Source of the DNA: Candidatus Thorarchaeota archaeon
GTDB taxonomy: Archaea > Asgardarchaeota > Thorarchaeia > Thorarchaeales > Thorarchaeaceae
DNA: 64,000 nucleotides
NCBI GenBank assembly: GCA_003345545.1
Contig: PRDH01000017.1
Span: 1-64,000 of the forward strand
Reading direction: 5' to 3'
Shown: piece after piece, positions 24,974 through 32,371 of the stretch
Layout of the letters: every line of letters begins with the position of its first letter
Numbering within the stretch: the stretch's first letter is position 1
The notes under the pieces: model-generated
Seen by the model: the letters and a program-made list of their open reading frames with translations, nothing else
The model's database searches: none
What the model was told of the DNA's origin: nothing
Made by a program: the position numbers and the translations under genes

Positions 24974-26923
24974 ATGATACACAACGTCTTGCTCATAGGA
25001 AAAGAAGATGGCAACGTTGTAGTGAGAACCAGGTTCTGGAAAATCGACTTTGTGGATAAGGATATCACTGACTTCCTGGCTGGCTATCGGGACCTCTTCG
25101 GGACACAAGGTCTCGCCCAGGACACTCCTGTCTTCGTAGCTGAGAAGCATAAAGTCTTCCATGCCGAGGTTGACGGAGACATGCTCCTGCTTTTTGTCAC
25201 CGACGGCCGTGATGAAGATCGGGCCATTCAGTACAGAGTCAGAGAAGGAGCATCCCGAGTTTCCACAGCCCTCCGTGGAAACAGCATTGGTTACATCCGT
25301 GATAATCTCGATGACATACTAGGCGAATTGATATTCACACGGTTCAAGGTCAGCTTCGTCGGAAGCGGTGGTGTCGGTAAGAGCACTCTCCTGCGGCTCC
25401 TCTTCGGCAAGGAGCCAGCGCCGGGAGGGTACGTACCAACCATCAATGTTGCTGTGGACTCCTCAGAAACCATACAATTCGGTACTTTTCTCGTGACCGT
25501 CTGGGACTTCGCAGGACAGGCAGTCTTTCAAGATTTATGGAGCTTCTACTTCTCTGGGACCGATGTTATCTTTCTGGTCACCGACTCAAGTTTCAGGAAC
25601 GTGATGCAGACCAAGTCCCTTCTTCGCACCATCAGGAAGGAAGCCCCTGCAGTGCCTCTCTTCATCCTGGCAAACAAGCAAGACCTTCCCGAGTCCATGA
25701 AAGCTGAGAAGATCAAGCGTCTTCTGGGCGCTCCCACATTCCCTATGATTGCCACGGACAAGTCTCGTCGCGAAGAATTCATTCGTATGATGCTAGAGGT
25801 TGCTGCTAAGACCGTTGGTGTGACGCTACCCGATCTGCCTATCAGTGAGATGATTACTGTTAGGAGAGGAACTGAGGAGATGGACCAGCCTGGAGCAGCG
25901 GCAAAGAAAGCCAAAGAGGGCGAAACCGGTTTTCAAGATGTGCCTTACGATGAAGCAGTCTCTTCGCTTGGCAAAGTAGCATCCGATGATTCGCCAACTA
26001 TGGATGCAGAGGCTGTAGGTCCCAAAACGACCACTGAGGTAGTCGCAGGTCAGAAGACCCCTGTTCGACCTGCTTCTGACCGCTCGAGGATACTGCACCT
26101 CTTAGCCATTGTTCCAACTGACGGTGTTCCTGATGTAGTCACTCATGTGAGTTATGCCGATGAAGTCATTGATGAGAACGCAGTTGCTTCTCTCATATCT
26201 GCACTCGACTCATTTGGAGGAATTGACGCACAATCAAGTGACGGCACTAGTGGTACTAATGCACTTGAAACGATTGAGCACGAAGGTAATCTCGTAATGG
26301 TCGAGAAGTCCACGCACTTCGTGATGGCGCTTATTGTGACAAATGACAGCCAGGAGGATGAGCAGAGAGGAGTCCTGAACTCAATACTAGTGGATCTCGA
26401 GCAGAAGTATCAGAATGTCTGGGCAACATGGAACGGCAGTACTTCGATATTCGAGCCCTCGATCTTTGACATTCTCGCGAAAGTTCCACTCAGACCGATC
26501 AGTCTTGACTACCTATTGAGAGCTAGGGAGGCTGGAAGACCTCTACCATTCAGCAATCGAGAGGTAGGTACAGCGATTGTGGAGGTTCAGTCCGCCATAG
26601 CGCAGAATGATACTATTGGTGGTCTAGTGCGGAGTCTCAATTTGCCCCGTGAGATAGTCCTTGGCTGTCTGCAGATACTGAATCGCTATGGATGGGTCGA
26701 TTTCAAGGTTGAAATTGGACCAACAAGCGTTCTGAAGAAAGTTGGAGTTGTCAGCGAGGAGACCGAGAAGGCCTACGGGCAAGCTGTGATCAAGTTTGTC
26801 GACTTCTGTGATGGTCAAACATCAATGGAGGACGTAGTCCGCAAGATTAACGTGAGCATGCAGGCCATGAAATTCGTGGCAACGAAGCTTGTTCTCGACG
26901 GCGTTCTTGAAATCGTGGCCTAG
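24974..26923 (+). CDS. Longin / Arf-like small GTPase / longin / 2x winged-helix protein
   Basis: G1 GSGGVGKS, G2 YVPT, G3 WDFAGQ, G4 NKQD; MIHNVLLIGKEDG longin start; second longin (LISALDSF...IEHEGNLVMVEK...MALIV); terminal DG.TS..DV wHTH. Confidence 0.85.
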   Translation: MIHNVLLIGKEDGNVVVRTRFWKIDFVDKDITDFLAGYRDLFGTQGLAQDTPVFVAEKHKVFHAEVDGDMLLLFVTDGRDEDRAIQYRVREGASRVSTALRGNSIGYIRDNLDDILGELIFTRFKVSFVGSGGVGKSTLLRLLFGKEPAPGGYVPTINVAVDSSETIQFGTFLVTVWDFAGQAVFQDLWSFYFSGTDVIFLVTDSSFRNVMQTKSLLRTIRKEAPAVPLFILANKQDLPESMKAEKIKRLLGAPTFPMIATDKSRREEFIRMMLEVAAKTVGVTLPDLPISEMITVRRGTEEMDQPGAAAKKAKEGETGFQDVPYDEAVSSLGKVASDDSPTMDAEAVGPKTTTEVVAGQKTPVRPASDRSRILHLLAIVPTDGVPDVVTHVSYADEVIDENAVASLISALDSFGGIDAQSSDGTSGTNALETIEHEGNLVMVEKSTHFVMALIVTNDSQEDEQRGVLNSILVDLEQKYQNVWATWNGSTSIFEPSIFDILAKVPLRPISLDYLLRAREAGRPLPFSNREVGTAIVEVQSAIAQNDTIGGLVRSLNLPREIVLGCLQILNRYGWVDFKVEIGPTSVLKKVGVVSEETEKAYGQAVIKFVDFCDGQTSMEDVVRKINVSMQAMKFVATKLVLDGVLEIVA

Positions 26924-29058
26924 ATTGATATGGTTATTCTCTCTTTATAGCTTGGTATCATGACGCCCTTTGGCTGGCTGAAGACTGGTGTGTGCACCAT
27001 TATCCGCTTTCCTGTGCATGAGTTGACGTATCTCTCAAGGTTGGACGATGAAGAATGCGCGCTTAGCCGAGCATATTCAACGGCACATTCATGAGGTTCA
27101 TAACCGTGAAGAAGATTCCATCCTGAAGTTCTGGGAGCTAGGTACCCGCAGAGAATTACTGCTGCCTTCGGATTGTTTCTCTGTTCATTGAAGTGCTGCC
27201 TTGCAAGGCCGCCGCTCATCATGCCTCCCCCCGCCACAAGTACATCATCCTCTTCAAGATGTGTCCTGTTCTTCTTCATGCTCTCCCAGCTGCCTGTGAC
27301 ACCGACGAGCTTCGTCACCCGCTCGGCCATCCCCGTAACCATGACATTTCGGTTCTTCGTTATGCCAAGTTCCTCTAAGATCAATAGAATTTCCTGCGAG
27401 CGTCCCACGGCGAAGCTCGGTACTATTACTGGTCCGTGAGTGGCGACTGTCTTGCTGATTTGTTCTGTTACCTTGGCTCTATCAAAATCCTCTCTTCCCC
27501 AGTAGGTGCCATCATAGATGACGTACCGTGCATCAGTAGGTATGTTTGCTCCAGGGAATAGTATTGACTTGTCAAGATTAAAGTCACCAGTATAAAGAAT
27601 CTTGACGCCTTCAATGTCTATTGCATAGACTGCGCTTCCGGGTATATGACATGCATCGATTGGTGTGACAACTATGCCCGAAGCGACCTCACTACTCTGC
27701 CCGTATTCCAGTTTCACATGGTTCTTTGCGACCTTCTGTATGTTCTCTTCATTGTAGCGTGAGATGAGGTCGAACTCGTCATACTTGCGAGGAGGGAATG
27801 GAGTTCCAACCTTCAGGGCATCGTCAAGCAGAACCGTGGTGACTGCTCCTGTTGGACCAACAGAGCACCACTTCCCTGTGAACTCCTCATAGAGAACTGG
27901 TAGACCTCCAACATGATCCAAATGTGAGTGGCTGATAAGAACGGTATCTATCATGTCCATCTCCGGAATCCATTCAGGGATCCTGTGATTCGCTACAGAG
28001 AGACCGTAGTCTAGCAGAATGCCGCCTGTGTCTGTCTTTATCAGAATGCCGCTTCTGCCAATCCTATGCCCTCCGAGGAATATGATCTCAATGTGCTTGA
28101 TTTTCGTGGAATAGGCAACCGATGGCAGAAGGTCCATTCGAAGCTTCTGCGGTATCATCTCAAAGATAATTGGATCTACTACTTCGCCAGGCGGAGGTCG
28201 AGCGAGCTCCTGAAGTCTTACAGGTAGGACTGTCTGCTTGTTCGTTCTGAACTGCTCTCTCACGAATATCTTCGATATGGTCTTGACGGAATCTTCGACA
28301 GTCATGCCTGATTTAATCTCAGTCTGCCCTTGCCTATACACTTCCTCTTTCTTTATCTTGAGAAGACTTAGTAGGACAGCATCAGGCGCCCACTCTCTCA
28401 TCGATTCAAACGCGTCAAAAAATGACCTGTTCAGCACAGCCTCGCTGAGATACTGCGGATGACGCGCAACGGCATTCACCAGACGATACTCCTCTGACTC
28501 AACGATAGGCTGTAGGTCTATCCCTAGTTTATTACCGGCGTCTATGAACGAAGTCGTGCCAAAAAGAGGAGCTCCGAGAAACTGAATCCAGTGCCGTATC
28601 TCGGTTAGGAGACTATGAGCATCGTCATTATTGATTGCTGCAAGGAGGACTAACGCCCTACGCAGCCATTCCTCTATGCTCGTTTGATTTCTTACATATC
28701 GCAGTGATTGCCTGTACAAGAAGCGGAAATCCTCTTCATTGTAGTTGCCGAAAATGAGGCCGTATGTGCAGAGAGTCATTGACTCGATGTAGTCTGATGC
28801 ACTTGCTTCTTCCTTCACATCCCTGAATACGTCGAGTAGGACCTCGTTGGCTGTTTTCGCAATCTGAAGAGATGATGTGTCCTGATTTTTGGATTTGGCA
28901 AGCTCAAACGCTATGAATTCTCGAGACTCTCCAAAGAACCCCTCGCCTTCAGGCACCTTCTTGCCTGTCAGAACCTCTTTCAAATCCGCTTCTGCTTGGT
29001 GAAGCATTCTCTTGATTTCTTCATGCTTCGTTTCTAGGGGTTCTTTCAAATCCTTCAC
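26920..29058 (-). CDS. beta-CASP metallo-beta-lactamase-fold ribonuclease with ~320-aa N-terminal extension
   Basis: LGG..IGRS, LDYG, SHSHLDH, HIPGS, YTGD, DGTY, PSFAVGRSQE, SAHS, VH. Confidence 0.85.
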   Translation of the reverse strand: MKDLKEPLETKHEEIKRMLHQAEADLKEVLTGKKVPEGEGFFGESREFIAFELAKSKNQDTSSLQIAKTANEVLLDVFRDVKEEASASDYIESMTLCTYGLIFGNYNEEDFRFLYRQSLRYVRNQTSIEEWLRRALVLLAAINNDDAHSLLTEIRHWIQFLGAPLFGTTSFIDAGNKLGIDLQPIVESEEYRLVNAVARHPQYLSEAVLNRSFFDAFESMREWAPDAVLLSLLKIKKEEVYRQGQTEIKSGMTVEDSVKTISKIFVREQFRTNKQTVLPVRLQELARPPPGEVVDPIIFEMIPQKLRMDLLPSVAYSTKIKHIEIIFLGGHRIGRSGILIKTDTGGILLDYGLSVANHRIPEWIPEMDMIDTVLISHSHLDHVGGLPVLYEEFTGKWCSVGPTGAVTTVLLDDALKVGTPFPPRKYDEFDLISRYNEENIQKVAKNHVKLEYGQSSEVASGIVVTPIDACHIPGSAVYAIDIEGVKILYTGDFNLDKSILFPGANIPTDARYVIYDGTYWGREDFDRAKVTEQISKTVATHGPVIVPSFAVGRSQEILLILEELGITKNRNVMVTGMAERVTKLVGVTGSWESMKKNRTHLEEDDVLVAGGGMMSGGLARQHFNEQRNNPKAAVILCGYLAPRTSGWNLLHGYEPHECAVEYARLSAHSSSSNLERYVNSCTGKRIMVHTPVFSQPKGVMIPSYKERITISI

Positions 29059-29085
29059 TCCACATTCTAATTCGAACTCCTCTAC

Positions 29086-30159
29086 TTATTGGCTTCTCTG
29101 CTTTCTTACTTGATATAGTCCCTGGCGACTATCTCGAAGAGACAGTTTCTTCGTTACCAGTCCCTCACTCATCAAGAGCGAGAGCGCATAGCGAACAGTC
29201 CTCGGAGGGAGCATTGTTTCCTCTATTATTTCCTTTTGGCTCATTTGATCCTGGTACTCAAGAACCTTAAGAACGAGTTTCGCACTCGGAGGCAGTTCTT
29301 GAGCATGCTCTTCTGATGCTTCGGACTTCTTTAGAAGCTTGCCTCTCAGGGCCGCGATCTTCTCCTCCTCGAACTTGACGAAGAATGCGCTTGAGTCGGC
29401 TCTTCGGATTCTGACTGGCTTGTTGTCCACTCTCTTTCTTATCTGTCCATCGAGGACTGCCTCTATGGCAACAGAACTTGTCAGGTCTCTGATCTCAACC
29501 TCTACGTCTTCAGGCAAGATCAGCGGTCTTCTGGAAGGATTCACGCTGTTCACGGGAATGATTGAAAACACAGGTGACGCATTGAGTATGACAGGACCGC
29601 CGACGCTCAGCGAATAGGCTGTGCTACCCGTTGGCGTGGCAACTATCAATCCATCACATCCGTCTTTCCAGAAGTGTTCTCCATCTATTAGAAGTGAGTA
29701 TCTTATCAGAGTCGCACTTCTTCTGGCAAAAATGCCTATGTCGTTAAGGAGAGGCGGGGTCTCTTTTCCGGAGATTTCTGCAACTAGTCGTTTCTTCTCC
29801 TCACGAGCCCATCTTCCTTCAAGCAAGTCATCAACAACACTCTCAAAATTAGTGACAAGGACATCGAAGAGAAAATCTGGTTGACCCTTCGAGGCTACCG
29901 GGAGGATTGGTGTGTCAGTCTGTCCGAGCTCTAGGAGTGTCTTCAAGAGAGATCTGTCAGATCCGACAATCGCCAGGATGTCTACATCCATCCTCTTGGA
30001 GGGACCACTCTTCATTCCGATGCTGCTCGCGAGTTTCTCGTCAAGGATAAAATCTGCTTTGCTCTTGATAAGTGTATCAACGACGCTCTTGGTGTCCTCA
30101 AGCATGCCTGCTTCGAGTCCGGACGTGACACCGATTCTCATCATTGCATTCTCCATCAA
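29086..30159 (-). CDS. NAD-kinase-fold protein (GGDG replaced by GSDR) fused to a C-terminal winged helix-turn-helix
   Basis: LND, DGLIVATPTGSTAYSLSVGGP, LDG; C-terminus LPPSAKLVLKVLE...SQKEI.EET.LPPRTVRYAL..L...G...DSRQ.LY. Confidence 0.85.
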   Translation of the reverse strand: MMENAMMRIGVTSGLEAGMLEDTKSVVDTLIKSKADFILDEKLASSIGMKSGPSKRMDVDILAIVGSDRSLLKTLLELGQTDTPILPVASKGQPDFLFDVLVTNFESVVDDLLEGRWAREEKKRLVAEISGKETPPLLNDIGIFARRSATLIRYSLLIDGEHFWKDGCDGLIVATPTGSTAYSLSVGGPVILNASPVFSIIPVNSVNPSRRPLILPEDVEVEIRDLTSSVAIEAVLDGQIRKRVDNKPVRIRRADSSAFFVKFEEEKIAALRGKLLKKSEASEEHAQELPPSAKLVLKVLEYQDQMSQKEIIEETMLPPRTVRYALSLLMSEGLVTKKLSLRDSRQGLYQVRKQRSQ

Positions 30160-30201
30160 ACTGGCGCATCTTCACTGGAGCTCAGTACACTTAAATGACA
30201 T

Positions 30202-30243
30202 GGCAAATGTTGCCTACCCGGCCTCTTCACGGAAATCATTGCC
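30202..30243. promoter_or_regulatory. Two GGMAA-N3-TTGCC boxes in the divergent promoter region
   Basis: GGCAAATGTTGCC (30202-30214) and GGAAATCATTGCC (30231-30243) lie between AT-rich TATA-like words at about 30191-30196 and 30256-30262. Confidence 0.4.
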
Positions 30244-30297
30244 GTTTGAGATTTCATTAAAAGTAGTTCCAAGCGAGTTGAGAAGTGGTGCAATTGC

Positions 30298-31263
30298 ATG
30301 CCACAGAGATTTAACAAGCTTCAGAAGAGAATCCTTGATCTGAAACGCAAGAAAAGAGTTCTCATTCTGGCCCACAACTACCAGACACTAGATATTCAGG
30401 AAATAGCAGATTTTGTGGGCGACTCTCTTCAGCTGGCAAGGAAGTCCGCTGAGTCGAATGCCCACAGCGCCATCCTTTTCGCCGGAGTGCGCTTTATGGC
30501 TGAGATGGCAGCAATCCTCTCACCTGAAGTTCCAGTCTACATTCCTGATCCCAAGGCACTCTGCCCCCTTGCAGCGTGTCTTGATGCGGAGAAGATACGA
30601 GCGAAGAAAAGGGAGTATCCCGGTGTTCCCGTGGTTGTCTATGTGAATACAACTGCAGAAGCAAAGTTCGAGGCTGACATGATATGTACGTCAGGTAGTG
30701 CAGTAGAGGTCGTGGAGTCTCTCGGAGTTGATACGGTGCTCTTCGGGCCTGATGTCAATCTTGCGGACAATGTGAGAAAGCACACTTCAGTTAGGATTAT
30801 CGACCTTGATGAAGAGGGCCATTGTTATGTGCACAACAAGTTCAATCTCGACATGTTCAAGTCGATGAAGGCAAAGTATCCTGACTCTGTGGCGATAGCT
30901 CATCCCGAGTGCCCCATTGAAGTACAGGATGCCGCAGATATGGTTGGATCCACTGGGATGATGGCAAAGACAGTGGCTGAGTCCGACGCAAAGGTGTTCT
31001 TGATTGCCACAGAACTAGGTATGGTTCAACAACTGCAGAAGCAGCATCCCAAAAAGAAAATCATTCCTGTGTACGATGCTGCTGTGTGTCGACAGATGAA
31101 GAAGCACACTCTGGAAAAAATCATCAATGTCCTAGAGAACTTCCCGGAGGGGAACAGAGTCACTGTCCCTGAACAGTACATTCCTCACATCAGAACCATA
31201 CTGGAGAGAATGAATAAAGTGCGTGGCCAAGGTCCCACGGCGCCAATAGATGCCCACTTGTGA
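30298..31263 (+). CDS. nadA: Quinolinate synthase
   Basis: LAHNYQ, GDSL.L, GV.FMAE, CPLA, YVNT.A..K, CTS, PD.NL, HC.VH, AHPEC, GST, TE.G, C..MK. Confidence 0.95.
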   Translation: MPQRFNKLQKRILDLKRKKRVLILAHNYQTLDIQEIADFVGDSLQLARKSAESNAHSAILFAGVRFMAEMAAILSPEVPVYIPDPKALCPLAACLDAEKIRAKKREYPGVPVVVYVNTTAEAKFEADMICTSGSAVEVVESLGVDTVLFGPDVNLADNVRKHTSVRIIDLDEEGHCYVHNKFNLDMFKSMKAKYPDSVAIAHPECPIEVQDAADMVGSTGMMAKTVAESDAKVFLIATELGMVQQLQKQHPKKKIIPVYDAAVCRQMKKHTLEKIINVLENFPEGNRVTVPEQYIPHIRTILERMNKVRGQGPTAPIDAHL

Positions 31264-31717: not shown

Positions 31718-32371
31718 CTATGCTGCAATGATGTTCCTGACCACTCCTAACAGAGTATGAAGCACAGGTCCTTCGTAGCCTAGGTTCCTGAAATCCTTCG
31801 ATGTGAACATTCTACTTAGTGCAATGAACTTGCAGAATCCCTTGGAACGTTCGAAGTCCTTGAGGGAGTCTCCTACGAACACCATCCTGTCAAAGGGTAC
31901 ATCGAAAGTCTTGTGAATGTGATTGAAATGATCTGCTCCCTTCTCAAAACCTGGTCTGTATCCTAGTATCGCCTTGAACAGACGCAGAATCCCTCGTCTT
32001 CTGAAGTATTCCTCAATGGTTGGCTGGAACGTAGATGACGAAACAAACACATCAATGCCTTTAGCTCTGATTCTCCTAACAGTGTCAACTGAGTCAGGAA
32101 ACAACTCTTGTTCGAATATCCGTTCTATCTTCAAATGCTCAAACTCTTCTATTGCTGCCTGGTTTCTTGAGTCGTCGGGGAAATTCATCTTGACCTGCTG
32201 TTCATATGGTAGTCCTGTTGTCGACCGATATCTGGATGTAGCTTCTTCCTTTGAGATGCCAAAGTACTTCATCATCATTTCAACACCGACGCTCTCGAGG
32301 AATGGCATGCTGTCCGCCAATGTGCCATCAAAATCGAAAACAATAGCGCTGCAGGGTATCCTATCAGGCAT
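31718..32371 (-). CDS. HAD-superfamily hydrolase
   Basis: FDFDGTL.DS, SS, K, FVGDS..D. Confidence 0.9.
   Translation of the reverse strand: MPDRIPCSAIVFDFDGTLADSMPFLESVGVEMMMKYFGISKEEATSRYRSTTGLPYEQQVKMNFPDDSRNQAAIEEFEHLKIERIFEQELFPDSVDTVRRIRAKGIDVFVSSSTFQPTIEEYFRRRGILRLFKAILGYRPGFEKGADHFNHIHKTFDVPFDRMVFVGDSLKDFERSKGFCKFIALSRMFTSKDFRNLGYEGPVLHTLLGVVRNIIAA

What the first reader, a model, noticed from the sequence alone, without database searches (positions are those of the whole stretch)
29086..31263. NAD-kinase-derived transcription factor divergent from nadA
Seen: the NADK signature GGDG reads GSDR (29953-29964) and the G.LGFL motif reads GQPDFL, while the NAD-binding motifs (ND, TPTGSTAY, DG) are intact. 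A winged helix is fused at the C-terminus, and the gene is head-to-head with quinolinate synthase across 138 bp. Established: the known NAD-pathway regulators NadR, NrtR and NiaR pair an HTH with other enzyme-like or ligand-binding folds; I do not recall one built on NAD kinase. Inference: a new NAD(P)-sensing regulator of de novo NAD synthesis.
Basis: partly seen in the sequence, partly recalled or inferred. Interest (0 to 1): 0.8.

Follow-up and report, generated by a model that had tools for sequence, protein, structure and literature searches.

The report
NAD-kinase-derived regulator of archaeal nadA
This Thorarchaeota (Asgard archaeon) gene fuses a remodelled NAD kinase to a DNA-binding winged helix and faces the NAD-synthesis gene nadA across two conserved palindromes, so it is very probably an undescribed transcription factor that matches NAD synthesis to the cell's NAD(P) level.

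Summary
ORF 29086-30159(-) has an NAD-kinase fold followed by a C-terminal winged helix. GGDG reads GSDR and G-x-x-GFL reads GQPDFL, while the NAD-site motifs are intact. nadA lies head-to-head.

- The genome has a separate canonical NAD kinase.
- The fusion proteins fall almost entirely on one side of a well-supported tree split, found in Asgard, Bathyarchaeota, Thermoplasmatota and Micrarchaeota. About three quarters have lost GGDG; all 48 plain NAD kinases on the other side keep it.
- The gene lies divergent from nadA in every Thorarchaeota locus but one with enough flank, in three further Asgard families and in Bathyarchaeota. In two other Asgard families it sits beside a nicotinate-phosphoribosyltransferase-like gene.
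- A GGCAA-N3-TTGCC palindrome occurs in 37 of 38 regulator-nadA spacers. In Thorarchaeota a second copy starts 29 bp on. Each abuts one of the two outward promoters.
- In relatives where the regulator is cleanly missing, the palindromes are gone.

The ligand, the sign of regulation (I favour repression) and loss of kinase activity are inferred. I found no paper describing this family. This scan has flagged and followed up the same family on other genomes several times.

The parts
29086..30159 (-). Regulator gene: NADK-fold sensor plus C-terminal winged helix. It is 357 aa from TTG 30159; the probable start is ATG 30144, giving 352 aa.
   Evidence: AF2 model mean pLDDT 92.4. Foldseek best hits are NAD kinases, TM 0.82-0.86 normalised by target length. 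GGAG at 30151-30154 fits the genome-wide SD peak.
29374..30141 (-). NAD-kinase fold (aa 7-262). GGDG is replaced by GSDR (29953-29964) and G-x-x-GFL by GQPDFL (29869-29886). ND (29740-29745), TPTGSTAY (29614-29637) and DG are intact.
29302..29367 (-). Long linker helix (aa 265-286) between sensor and winged helix. It contains a low-confidence stretch at aa 274-280.
29107..29295 (-). MarR/HTH_24-like winged helix (aa 289-351, topology H-S-H-H-S-S). The putative recognition helix LPPRTVRYAL lies at 29182-29211.
   Evidence: L317, R320, T321, D343, R345 and Y349 are at least 90% conserved in 85 fusion proteins.
30190..30196 (-). TATA-like box of the regulator promoter (CTTAAAT on +, ATTTAAG on -).
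   Evidence: Conserved in 28 aligned spacers. Also kept in regulator-less relatives, where it serves the beta-CASP gene. Promoter function is inferred.
30202..30214 (.). Operator site 1, the perfect palindrome GGCAA-ATG-TTGCC. It lies 5 bp from the regulator's TATA-like box, over the expected BRE.
30231..30243 (.). Operator site 2, GGAAA-TCA-TTGCC (1 mismatch). It starts exactly 29 bp after site 1 and ends 12 bp upstream of the nadA TATA-like box.
30244..30263 (+). nadA core-promoter block: GTTTGAGATTTC followed by the TATA-like ATTAAAAG (30256-30263).
   Evidence: Conserved with and without the regulator. TTAAAW is weakly enriched at -64 to -40 genome-wide.
30287..30290 (+). nadA Shine-Dalgarno GGTG at -11 to -8.
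   Evidence: Genome-wide GGTG peak at -12 to -9, 136 counts against about 20 background. Conserved in the spacer alignment.
30298..31263 (+). nadA, quinolinate synthase: the predicted target gene.
   Evidence: PF02445 333.7 bits; NF006878 340 bits, above its cut-off of 294.

Best explanation
The gene encodes a homodimeric, enzyme-derived transcription factor. Its N-terminal NAD-kinase fold keeps the NAD(P) pocket at the dimer interface, but its phosphoryl-donor loop is remodelled (GGDG to GSDR, GxxGFL to GQPDFL). It therefore most likely acts as a pyridine-nucleotide sensor rather than as the cell's NAD kinase; a canonical paralogue does that job. The C-terminal winged helices of the dimer bind two GGCAA-N3-TTGCC palindromes whose starts lie 29 bp apart, between the back-to-back promoters of its own gene and nadA. 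Each site abuts the BRE/TATA of one promoter. I propose that the ligand-bound form (NAD+ or NADP+) occupies the sites, blocks TFB/TBP and represses both nadA and itself, and that falling NAD(P) releases it. SHOWN by computation: fold, motifs, paralogue, family, gene linkage, operator conservation and its co-loss with the gene. INFERRED: ligand identity, sign of regulation, loss of kinase activity, DNA binding itself.
For: Fold and motifs:
- AF2 pLDDT is 92.4 and the best structural matches are NAD kinases.
- N139, G178 and D237 are invariant, and the TPTGSTAY region is at least 90% conserved in 85 fusion proteins. The GGDG Asp is not among the conserved columns.

Kinase role covered elsewhere:
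- Paralogue C44 has GGDGT and GTVGFL.

Phylogeny:
- A 98* split separates 48 plain NADKs, all with GGDG and including the C44 paralogue, from a side holding all 75 fusion rows (plus 13 rows without an aligned wHTH).
- 57 of those 75 lack GGDG.
- Asgard family f8 has lost the catalytic Asp (GDTGT) yet keeps the nadA divergon.

Gene linkage:
- nadA is divergent in 26 of the 27 Thorarchaeota loci with flank on that side (L033 is the exception).
- The same holds in families f2, f6 and f8, in Bathyarchaeota (divergent from nadX-nadA) and in P0197 (nadA on one side, nadB on the other).
- A NAPRTase-like gene is the neighbour in f26 and f30.

Operator:
- 37 of 38 spacers hold a site with at most 1 mismatch, against a mean of 0.1 in shuffles.
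- There are 56 sites in 9.8 kb of spacer against 3 in 243 kb of flanks.
- The N3 spacer varies while the arms stay fixed.
- A perfect site occurs in the Bathyarchaeota spacer and a 1-mismatch site upstream of a Thermoplasmatota nadA.
- In this genome it is the only intergenic perfect site, and the pair of sites is unique genome-wide.

Natural deletions:
- In 7 of the 9 regulator-less relatives examined, nadA abuts the beta-CASP gene directly.
- In 7 of the 9 no site with at most 1 mismatch remains. The other two keep only a decayed site, one of them beside a decayed wHTH remnant.

Dimer:
- ipSAE is 0.43 against a best control of 0.00. The mark was reached by 20 of 30 proteins solved as pairs and 1 of 23 solved as single chains.
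- The three runs share at least 80% of their contacts and partner pLDDT is at least 77. The interface covers residues 158, 176-199 and 211-219, next to the NAD motifs.
- This probably passes by likeness to solved NADK dimers. The NAD site of NADKs is formed at the dimer interface (PMC8553519).
Against: - No experiment exists.
- The catalytic Asp (D68) and every NAD-contact motif are kept, so residual or altered kinase activity cannot be excluded.
- In G291 (f26, motif GRDRD, 91% complete) and G005 (GGDGT) no separate canonical NADK was found. Some family members are therefore probably still enzymes, and a Gly-to-Arg change alone may not kill activity.
- Both operators lie upstream of the presumed TATA boxes. 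In archaea that position can also mean activation.
- Promoter elements are assigned from conservation and weak genome-wide statistics only.
- nadB and nadC of this genome have no site, so the regulon would be very small.
- The NAPRTase-linked lineages lack this motif.
Confidence: 0.72

Rival explanations
1. Bifunctional enzyme-regulator, like RbkR, BirA or NadR. The protein is still an active NAD (or NADH/polyphosphate-dependent) kinase, and its catalytic cycle (substrate against product) sets DNA binding.
For: D68 of the GGDG position, ND, TPTGSTAY and DG are all retained. The N-domain folds confidently. 18 of 75 fusion clusters keep GGDG. G005 (GGDGT fusion) and G291 (GRDRD fusion) show no other canonical NADK. 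RbkR sets the precedent of an active kinase fused to a wHTH (PMC5397151).
Against: Two of four GGDG positions and the second Gly-rich motif are changed, and changed in a fixed way. PF01513 is not detected. GGDGT is present in 124 of 127 archaeal NADKs (PMC8553519) and in 48 of 48 plain NADKs here. This genome has a canonical paralogue. Sister lineages with the same nadA divergon have lost the Asp altogether.
Confidence: 0.15
2. Same DNA-binding factor, but an activator. The apo form, when NAD(P) is low, binds upstream of the two TATA boxes and recruits TBP/TFB to nadA. The ligand releases it.
For: Both sites lie upstream of the TATA-like boxes. From established knowledge of archaeal regulators such as Ptr2 and TrmBL1, that position can activate. 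nadA promoters in regulator-less relatives keep the core block and presumably work without the factor, so the factor is modulatory.
Against: Site 1 sits only 5 bp from its TATA-like box, on the BRE. Site 2's right arm is contiguous with the promoter block that is conserved irrespective of the regulator. Known NAD regulators (NadR, NiaR, NrtR) are repressors (PMC2330245, PMC2330246). Regulator loss with a retained functional nadA is easier to tolerate for a repressor.
Confidence: 0.2
3. The sensor binds a metabolite other than NAD(P)(H), for example ATP/ADP, NaAD, NMN or quinolinate. The NADK fold is only a scaffold.
For: The donor-site loop is remodelled with a new basic residue (GSD-R/K), and Q-P-D replaces x-L-G. 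This suggests a changed pocket. No ligand has been tested.
Against: The residues that contact NAD in solved NADKs (NE/D, region II, DG) are the best conserved columns of the fusion family. The variable parts are those that bind the phosphoryl donor.
Confidence: 0.15
4. Not a regulator of nadA. The adjacency is neutral synteny and the palindromes belong to another factor.
For: Not every family member is next to an NAD gene (G005, the Heimdall-type locus L053, Micrarchaeota). L033 is a Thorarchaeota exception.
Against: Linkage persists to 29% identity and across phyla. The palindrome tracks presence and absence of the gene. The recognition helix is conserved wherever the motif is conserved.
Confidence: 0.04

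Closest known systems
RbkR, the archaeal riboflavin kinase/regulator (Rodionova et al. 2017, PMC5397151)
   Same: An archaeal cofactor-pathway kinase domain fused to a MarR-like wHTH. It autoregulates and controls the biosynthesis genes of the same cofactor through palindromic operators. The kinase domain's ligands set DNA binding. It was found by the same comparative-genomic logic.
   Different: The enzyme fold is unrelated (CTP-dependent RibK against NADK). The domain order is reversed: wHTH N-terminal in RbkR, C-terminal here. RbkR is an active kinase and usually the only RibK in its genome. Here the catalytic loop is remodelled and a canonical paralogue exists.
Bacterial NAD regulators NadR, NiaR, NrtR (PMC2330245, PMC2330246)
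   Same: An HTH plus an enzyme-like or ligand-binding domain that senses a pyridine-nucleotide metabolite and controls nadA/nadB/nadC or salvage genes. NrtR is likewise a catalytically degenerate enzyme homologue (Nudix).
   Different: No homology of the sensor. Pfam finds only NAD_kinase_C plus wHTH families here. Those regulators are bacterial; this family is archaeal.
Canonical NAD kinases (e.g. 7qvs, 1suw, 1z0s; PMC8553519)
   Same: Same two-domain fold (TM 0.82-0.86 by target length). The NE/D motif, conserved region II and DG are the same, and a dimer is predicted through the NAD-site interface.
   Different: GGDG reads GSDR and G-x-x-GFL reads GQPDFL. An extra helix plus wHTH of about 90 aa is added. 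NCBIfam scores are far below every NADK cut-off. It sits in a separate clade from the plain NADKs.
ROK-family repressors (sugar-kinase-like domain plus HTH, e.g. XylR, NagC)
   Same: A kinase fold recruited as the ligand sensor of a repressor, within a family that also contains active kinases.
   Different: Unrelated fold (ASKHA), N-terminal HTH, bacterial, sugar ligands. This comparison rests on established knowledge and on the citation in PMC2330246; I did not test it here.

Membership tests
NAD kinase (EC 2.7.1.23) as enzyme | GGDG motif (phosphoryl-donor loop with the catalytic Asp) | tested here: not met
   It reads GSDR. The Asp is kept and 2 of 3 Gly are lost; the change is fixed as GSD[RK] in 120 relatives. 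PMC8553519 describes the GGDG motif as conserved in all NAD kinases, and reports GGDGT in 124 of 127 archaeal ones.
NAD kinase (EC 2.7.1.23) as enzyme | NE/D short motif and conserved region II (NAD binding) | tested here: met
   ND 139-140 and the DGLIVATPTGSTAY... region are intact and among the best conserved columns.
NAD kinase (EC 2.7.1.23) as enzyme | Two-domain NADK fold and dimer through the NAD site | tested here: met
   Foldseek E 8e-28, TM by target 0.82-0.86. Dimer ipSAE 0.43 against control 0.00, a pass probably by likeness to solved NADK dimers.
NAD kinase (EC 2.7.1.23) as enzyme | Score above curated family cut-offs | tested here: not met
   Best NCBIfam hit 132.5 bits against a cut-off of 326. 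PF01513 is not hit.
NAD kinase (EC 2.7.1.23) as enzyme | Catalyses NAD to NADP | not testable with these tools
   Needs an enzyme assay.
MarR-type wHTH transcription factor | Winged helix-turn-helix topology | tested here: met
   The AF2 model gives H291-303, E305-307, H308-315, H319-331, E335-339, E347-351. MarR_2 or HTH_24 is hit in 41-42 of 85 family members. In this protein both are below the gathering score: 23.3 against 27, and 20.4 against 21.9.
MarR-type wHTH transcription factor | Dimerisation through N- and C-terminal helices flanking the wHTH; ligand pocket between dimerisation and DNA-binding lobes | tested here: not met
   Only the wHTH core is present. Predicted dimer contacts lie in the NADK C-domain. 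It is therefore MarR-like in its DNA-binding module only.
RbkR family | CTP-dependent riboflavin kinase (RibK) domain plus N-terminal wHTH | tested here: not met
   No RibK domain is present and the wHTH is C-terminal. It is a functional analogue, not a member.
NadR / NiaR / NrtR | NMNAT/RNK, 3H or Nudix effector domains | tested here: not met
   Pfam at E<=0.01 gives only NAD_kinase_C and wHTH families.
Proposed NADK-wHTH regulator family | NADK fold plus C-terminal wHTH, linked to NAD genes, with a GGCAA-N3-TTGCC operator | tested here: met

The most novel reading that the evidence does not exclude
This is the first transcription-factor family for NAD homeostasis in Archaea, spread over several phyla (Asgard, Bathyarchaeota, Thermoplasmatota, DPANN). 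It is built on the NAD-kinase fold and forms a natural series. At one end are probable bifunctional kinase-regulators with GGDG intact and no other NADK. At the other are pure pseudo-kinase sensors with the motif remodelled or the catalytic Asp lost and a canonical paralogue present. All recognise a conserved GGCAA-N3-TTGCC operator.
Probability: 0.65. Interest if true: 0.75.

Novelty: new variant of a known kind. Interest (0 to 1): 0.7.

Why it matters
My literature searches found no regulator of NAD synthesis described in Archaea. The known ones (NadR, NiaR, NrtR) are bacterial. A sensor built from NAD kinase would show a fourth independent recruitment of an NAD-pathway-related fold as a transcription-factor effector domain. 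It gives a clean example of enzyme-to-pseudoenzyme transition, with intermediates still present in nature. It also provides a defined protein-operator pair, a 13-bp palindrome, that can be tested in vitro even though the organism is uncultured. In addition it corrects a widespread annotation: 'NAD(+)/NADH kinase' or 'sugar kinase' for these genes would inflate NADK counts in Asgard metabolic reconstructions.

Tried and rejected
- **TGCAATTGCA palindrome over the nadA start (30289-30298).** It is not conserved in orthologous spacers; only the GGTG Shine-Dalgarno part is. Rejected as an operator.
- **GAAATC-N12-GATTTC inverted repeat (30233-30256).** I noted it at first. It is explained as site 2 plus the promoter block and is not conserved as a repeat.
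- **A wider regulon in this genome.** There is no site with at most 2 mismatches upstream of nadB (C9) or nadC (C6). The two other perfect sites are intragenic and match the chance expectation of 2.3.
- **The same motif in NAPRTase-linked lineages (f26, f30), f5 and the Heimdall-type locus.** None found at up to 1 mismatch near the gene. These genomes are AT-rich and may use a diverged site.
- **P0197 spacer and the Micrarchaeota locus.** No site.
- **Aspartate dehydrogenase (nadX).** Not found in this genome, which is 93% complete; nadB is present.
- **Transcription evidence.** Contigs of one RNA library lie with no mismatches on 28999-29269 and 29368-29554. Contigs cannot show strand, ends or level, and DNA carry-over is possible, so this is no more than a hint. 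The uncovered parts say nothing.
- **Literature.** Five full-text searches found no paper on an NADK-HTH regulator. Subscription journals are not covered.
- **Genome-wide TATA statistics.** TTAAAW counts are low (4-7 per bin), so promoter placement rests mainly on conservation.
Full report
**1. What is in the sequence**

The window comes from a Thorarchaeota (Asgard) metagenome-assembled genome of 2.69 Mb in 82 contigs, 93% complete.

ORF 29086-30159(-) encodes 357 aa from a TTG. A GGAG at 30151-30154 sits 6 nt before ATG 30144 and matches the genome-wide Shine-Dalgarno peak. Orthologue alignments begin at residues 3-8. The real start is therefore probably ATG 30144.

- Pfam finds NAD_kinase_C (71 bits, aa 138-262) and sub-threshold MarR_2/HTH_24 (aa 289-346), but not the N-domain model PF01513.
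- All NCBIfam NAD kinase models score far below their cut-offs; the best is 132 bits against 326.
Alignment to the solved P. aeruginosa NADK places GSDR on GGDG and GQPDFL on GSLGFL.
- nadA (30298-31263, 334 bits) is divergent across 138 bp.

**2. Structure**

An AlphaFold2 model built on 85 family members has mean pLDDT 92.4. It shows an NADK two-domain fold (aa 7-262), a long helix (265-286) and a classical winged helix (291-351).

Foldseek's best matches are all NAD kinases, with E 8e-28 and TM 0.82-0.86 by target length.

A two-copy prediction gave ipSAE 0.43 against a best control of 0.00.
- That mark was reached by 20 of 30 proteins solved as pairs and 1 of 23 solved as single chains.
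- The runs share at least 80% of their contacts, and partner pLDDT is at least 77.
- The symmetric interface covers residues 158, 176-199 and 211-219, next to the NAD motifs.
- Solved NADKs form their NAD site at such a dimer interface (PMC8553519), so this pass probably reflects likeness to known structures.

**3. It is not the cell's NAD kinase**

The genome has a 293-aa paralogue on contig C44 with GGDGT and GTVGFL. It hits both Pfam NADK domains, and its best NCBIfam hit is NAD(+) kinase at 227 bits. There is also a 376-aa NADK-like protein on C29.

**4. The family**

120 close relatives (56-100% identity, named Thorarchaeota by their sources) all carry GSD[RK] and GQPDFLF. ND, TPTGSTAY and DGQ are intact in them.

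A library-wide HMMER search found about 75 clusters (at 50% identity) that have the C-terminal wHTH. Source names include Bathyarchaeota, Thermoplasmatota, Micrarchaeota and Heimdall-group archaea.

On a tree of the shared NADK core, a 98* split separates two groups:
- 48 plain NADKs, all with GGDG, including this genome's C44 paralogue;
- a side holding all 75 fusion rows, plus 13 rows without an aligned wHTH. Most of those 13 are short proteins that look like C-terminally truncated fusions; five are plain GGDG proteins of 255-274 aa.

57 of the 75 fusion rows lack GGDG, in many different ways: GDDS, GNDR, GTDR, GDSA and others.

In the 85-protein alignment, the invariant or nearly invariant columns are the NAD-site residues (N139, D166, D169-G170, T175-P176, G178-S179-T180, D237-G238) and the wHTH residues (L317, R320, T321, D343, R345, Y349). 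The GGDG Asp is not among them.

So constraint has moved from catalysis to NAD binding and DNA binding.

**5. Gene linkage**

nadA is divergent from the gene in these places:
- 26 of the 27 Thorarchaeota loci with flank on that side. L033 is the exception; there an unannotated 480-aa ORF lies upstream.
- Asgard families f2, f6 and f8, at only 29-47% identity.
- A Bathyarchaeota contig, where it faces nadX-nadA.
- P0197, with nadA on one side and nadB on the other.
- In Thermoplasmatota, nadA and nadX lie within about 3.5 kb.

In Asgard families f26 and f30 the neighbour is instead a nicotinate-phosphoribosyltransferase-like gene, which belongs to salvage.

The f8 proteins have lost the catalytic Asp (GDTGT) and the f30 proteins read GGAAT.

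**6. Operator**

The spacer holds two sites: GGCAA-ATG-TTGCC (30202-30214) and GGAAA-TCA-TTGCC (30231-30243).

- Across 38 regulator-nadA spacers, 37 have a site with at most 1 mismatch. Shuffled spacers average 0.1, with a maximum of 2.
- In Thorarchaeota a second site starts exactly 29 bp downstream.
- There are 56 sites in 9.8 kb of spacer against 3 in 243 kb of flanking DNA.
- An unbiased count of 5-bp-arm palindromes ranks GGCAA/N3 first, in 23 of 38 spacers; the next best is in 9.
- The N3 spacer varies while the arms are fixed.
- The Bathyarchaeota spacer has a perfect site. A Thermoplasmatota nadA has a 1-mismatch site 85 nt upstream. Each is the only such site in its 9-kb locus.
- In this genome there are 3 perfect sites against 2.3 expected. 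The other two are intragenic, and the (0,1)-mismatch pair at 29 bp is unique.

**7. Natural deletions**

I examined nine relatives in the same GTDB family that have nadA but no full-length regulator.

- In seven of them the beta-CASP gene, which lies just downstream of the regulator in our window, directly faces nadA. The regulator is therefore cleanly absent.
- In seven of the nine no site with at most 1 mismatch remains upstream of nadA.
- G364 keeps decayed copies of both sites (2 and 1 mismatches).
- G334 keeps a 1-mismatch site next to a decayed remnant of the wHTH only.
- The block TTGCCG.TTGAGATT...TTAAAAG persists in nearly all of them.

The right arm of site 2 is therefore contiguous with what is probably the nadA core promoter.

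**8. Geometry and mechanism**

The order of elements, with exact coordinates, is:
- regulator ATG at 30144;
- TATA-like box at 30190-30196;
- 5 bp;
- site 1;
- 16 bp;
- site 2;
- the 12-bp conserved block;
- TATA-like box at 30256-30263;
- SD GGTG at 30287-30290;
- nadA ATG at 30298.

Each palindrome abuts the BRE side of one outward promoter.

I infer that a ligand-bound dimer occludes TFB/TBP and represses both genes, as NadR, NiaR and NrtR do in bacteria. Activation from this upstream position cannot be excluded.

The ligand is inferred to be NAD+ or NADP+ because the NAD-contact residues are the most conserved part of the sensor.

**9. Cautions**

- D68 is retained.
- In G291 (GRDRD fusion, 91% complete) and G005 (GGDGT fusion, 96% complete) no separate canonical NADK was found. 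G007, G016 and G308 do have one.
- The family therefore probably spans bifunctional and sensor-only members. 'Kinase-dead' for this protein is likely but unproven.
- nadB and nadC here carry no site.

**10. Novelty**

Five full-text searches found no description of an NADK-based regulator.

The closest analogue is RbkR, which pairs riboflavin kinase with a wHTH (PMC5397151). It differs in fold, domain order and retained activity.

Earlier notes of this scan report the same family on at least 20 other genomes and reach the same reading. I re-tested their main claims independently on this window and its relatives.

Noticed in passing
window 26920-29058 (-): A 712-aa metallo-beta-lactamase/beta-CASP protein with an unannotated N-terminal half of about 330 aa. 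It starts 27 nt downstream of the regulator on the same strand and may be co-transcribed. In regulator-less relatives it is the gene that faces nadA and uses the same conserved TATA-like CTTAAAT box.
   Followed up: partly
window 24974-26923 (+): A 649-aa protein with an Arf/Roc/Ras-type small GTPase domain (aa 122-254) and a long C-terminal extension with no hit to any Pfam family. It is an Asgard-type 'eukaryotic signature' GTPase. Its stop overlaps the end of the convergent beta-CASP gene by 4 nt.
   Followed up: no
window 31718-32371 (-): A HAD-family hydrolase convergent with nadA. This synteny is kept in the Thorarchaeota relatives examined, and a HAD hydrolase also adjoins the regulator in family f5 (L038). 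It could be an NMN/NaMN-type nucleotidase of NAD metabolism; that is speculative.
   Followed up: partly
L065 2428-2815 (G334, genus g10): Between nadA and the beta-CASP gene there remains only a decayed C-terminal piece of the regulator (61% identical to aa 301-351, first wHTH helix missing) and one 1-mismatch operator. This is a deletion remnant and shows secondary loss of the regulator.
   Followed up: partly
G000 contig C29, L005 1312-2442 (+): A third NADK-like gene of 376 aa with GGDG and a long glycine-rich N-terminus. It matches no NCBIfam model. Similar 372-384-aa genes occur in G005, G007 and G016. Function unknown.
   Followed up: no
G291 (family f26) and G005 (family f5): In these Asgard genomes the NADK-wHTH fusion is the only canonical-length NADK_C gene found. 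In G291 the motif reads GRDRD. Either the altered motif still supports catalysis there, or the NADK is unassembled.
   Followed up: partly
L033 1-1497 (G376): The one Thorarchaeota locus where the regulator is not next to nadA. It follows a 480-aa ORF with no Pfam hit, 54 nt upstream, and no operator is present.
   Followed up: partly
L046-L052 (family f8): The regulator-nadA spacer is about 355 nt, nadA carries an N-terminal extension and is followed by a 278-aa ORF. A single GGCAA-N3-TTGCT site lies about 137 nt upstream of nadA.
   Followed up: partly
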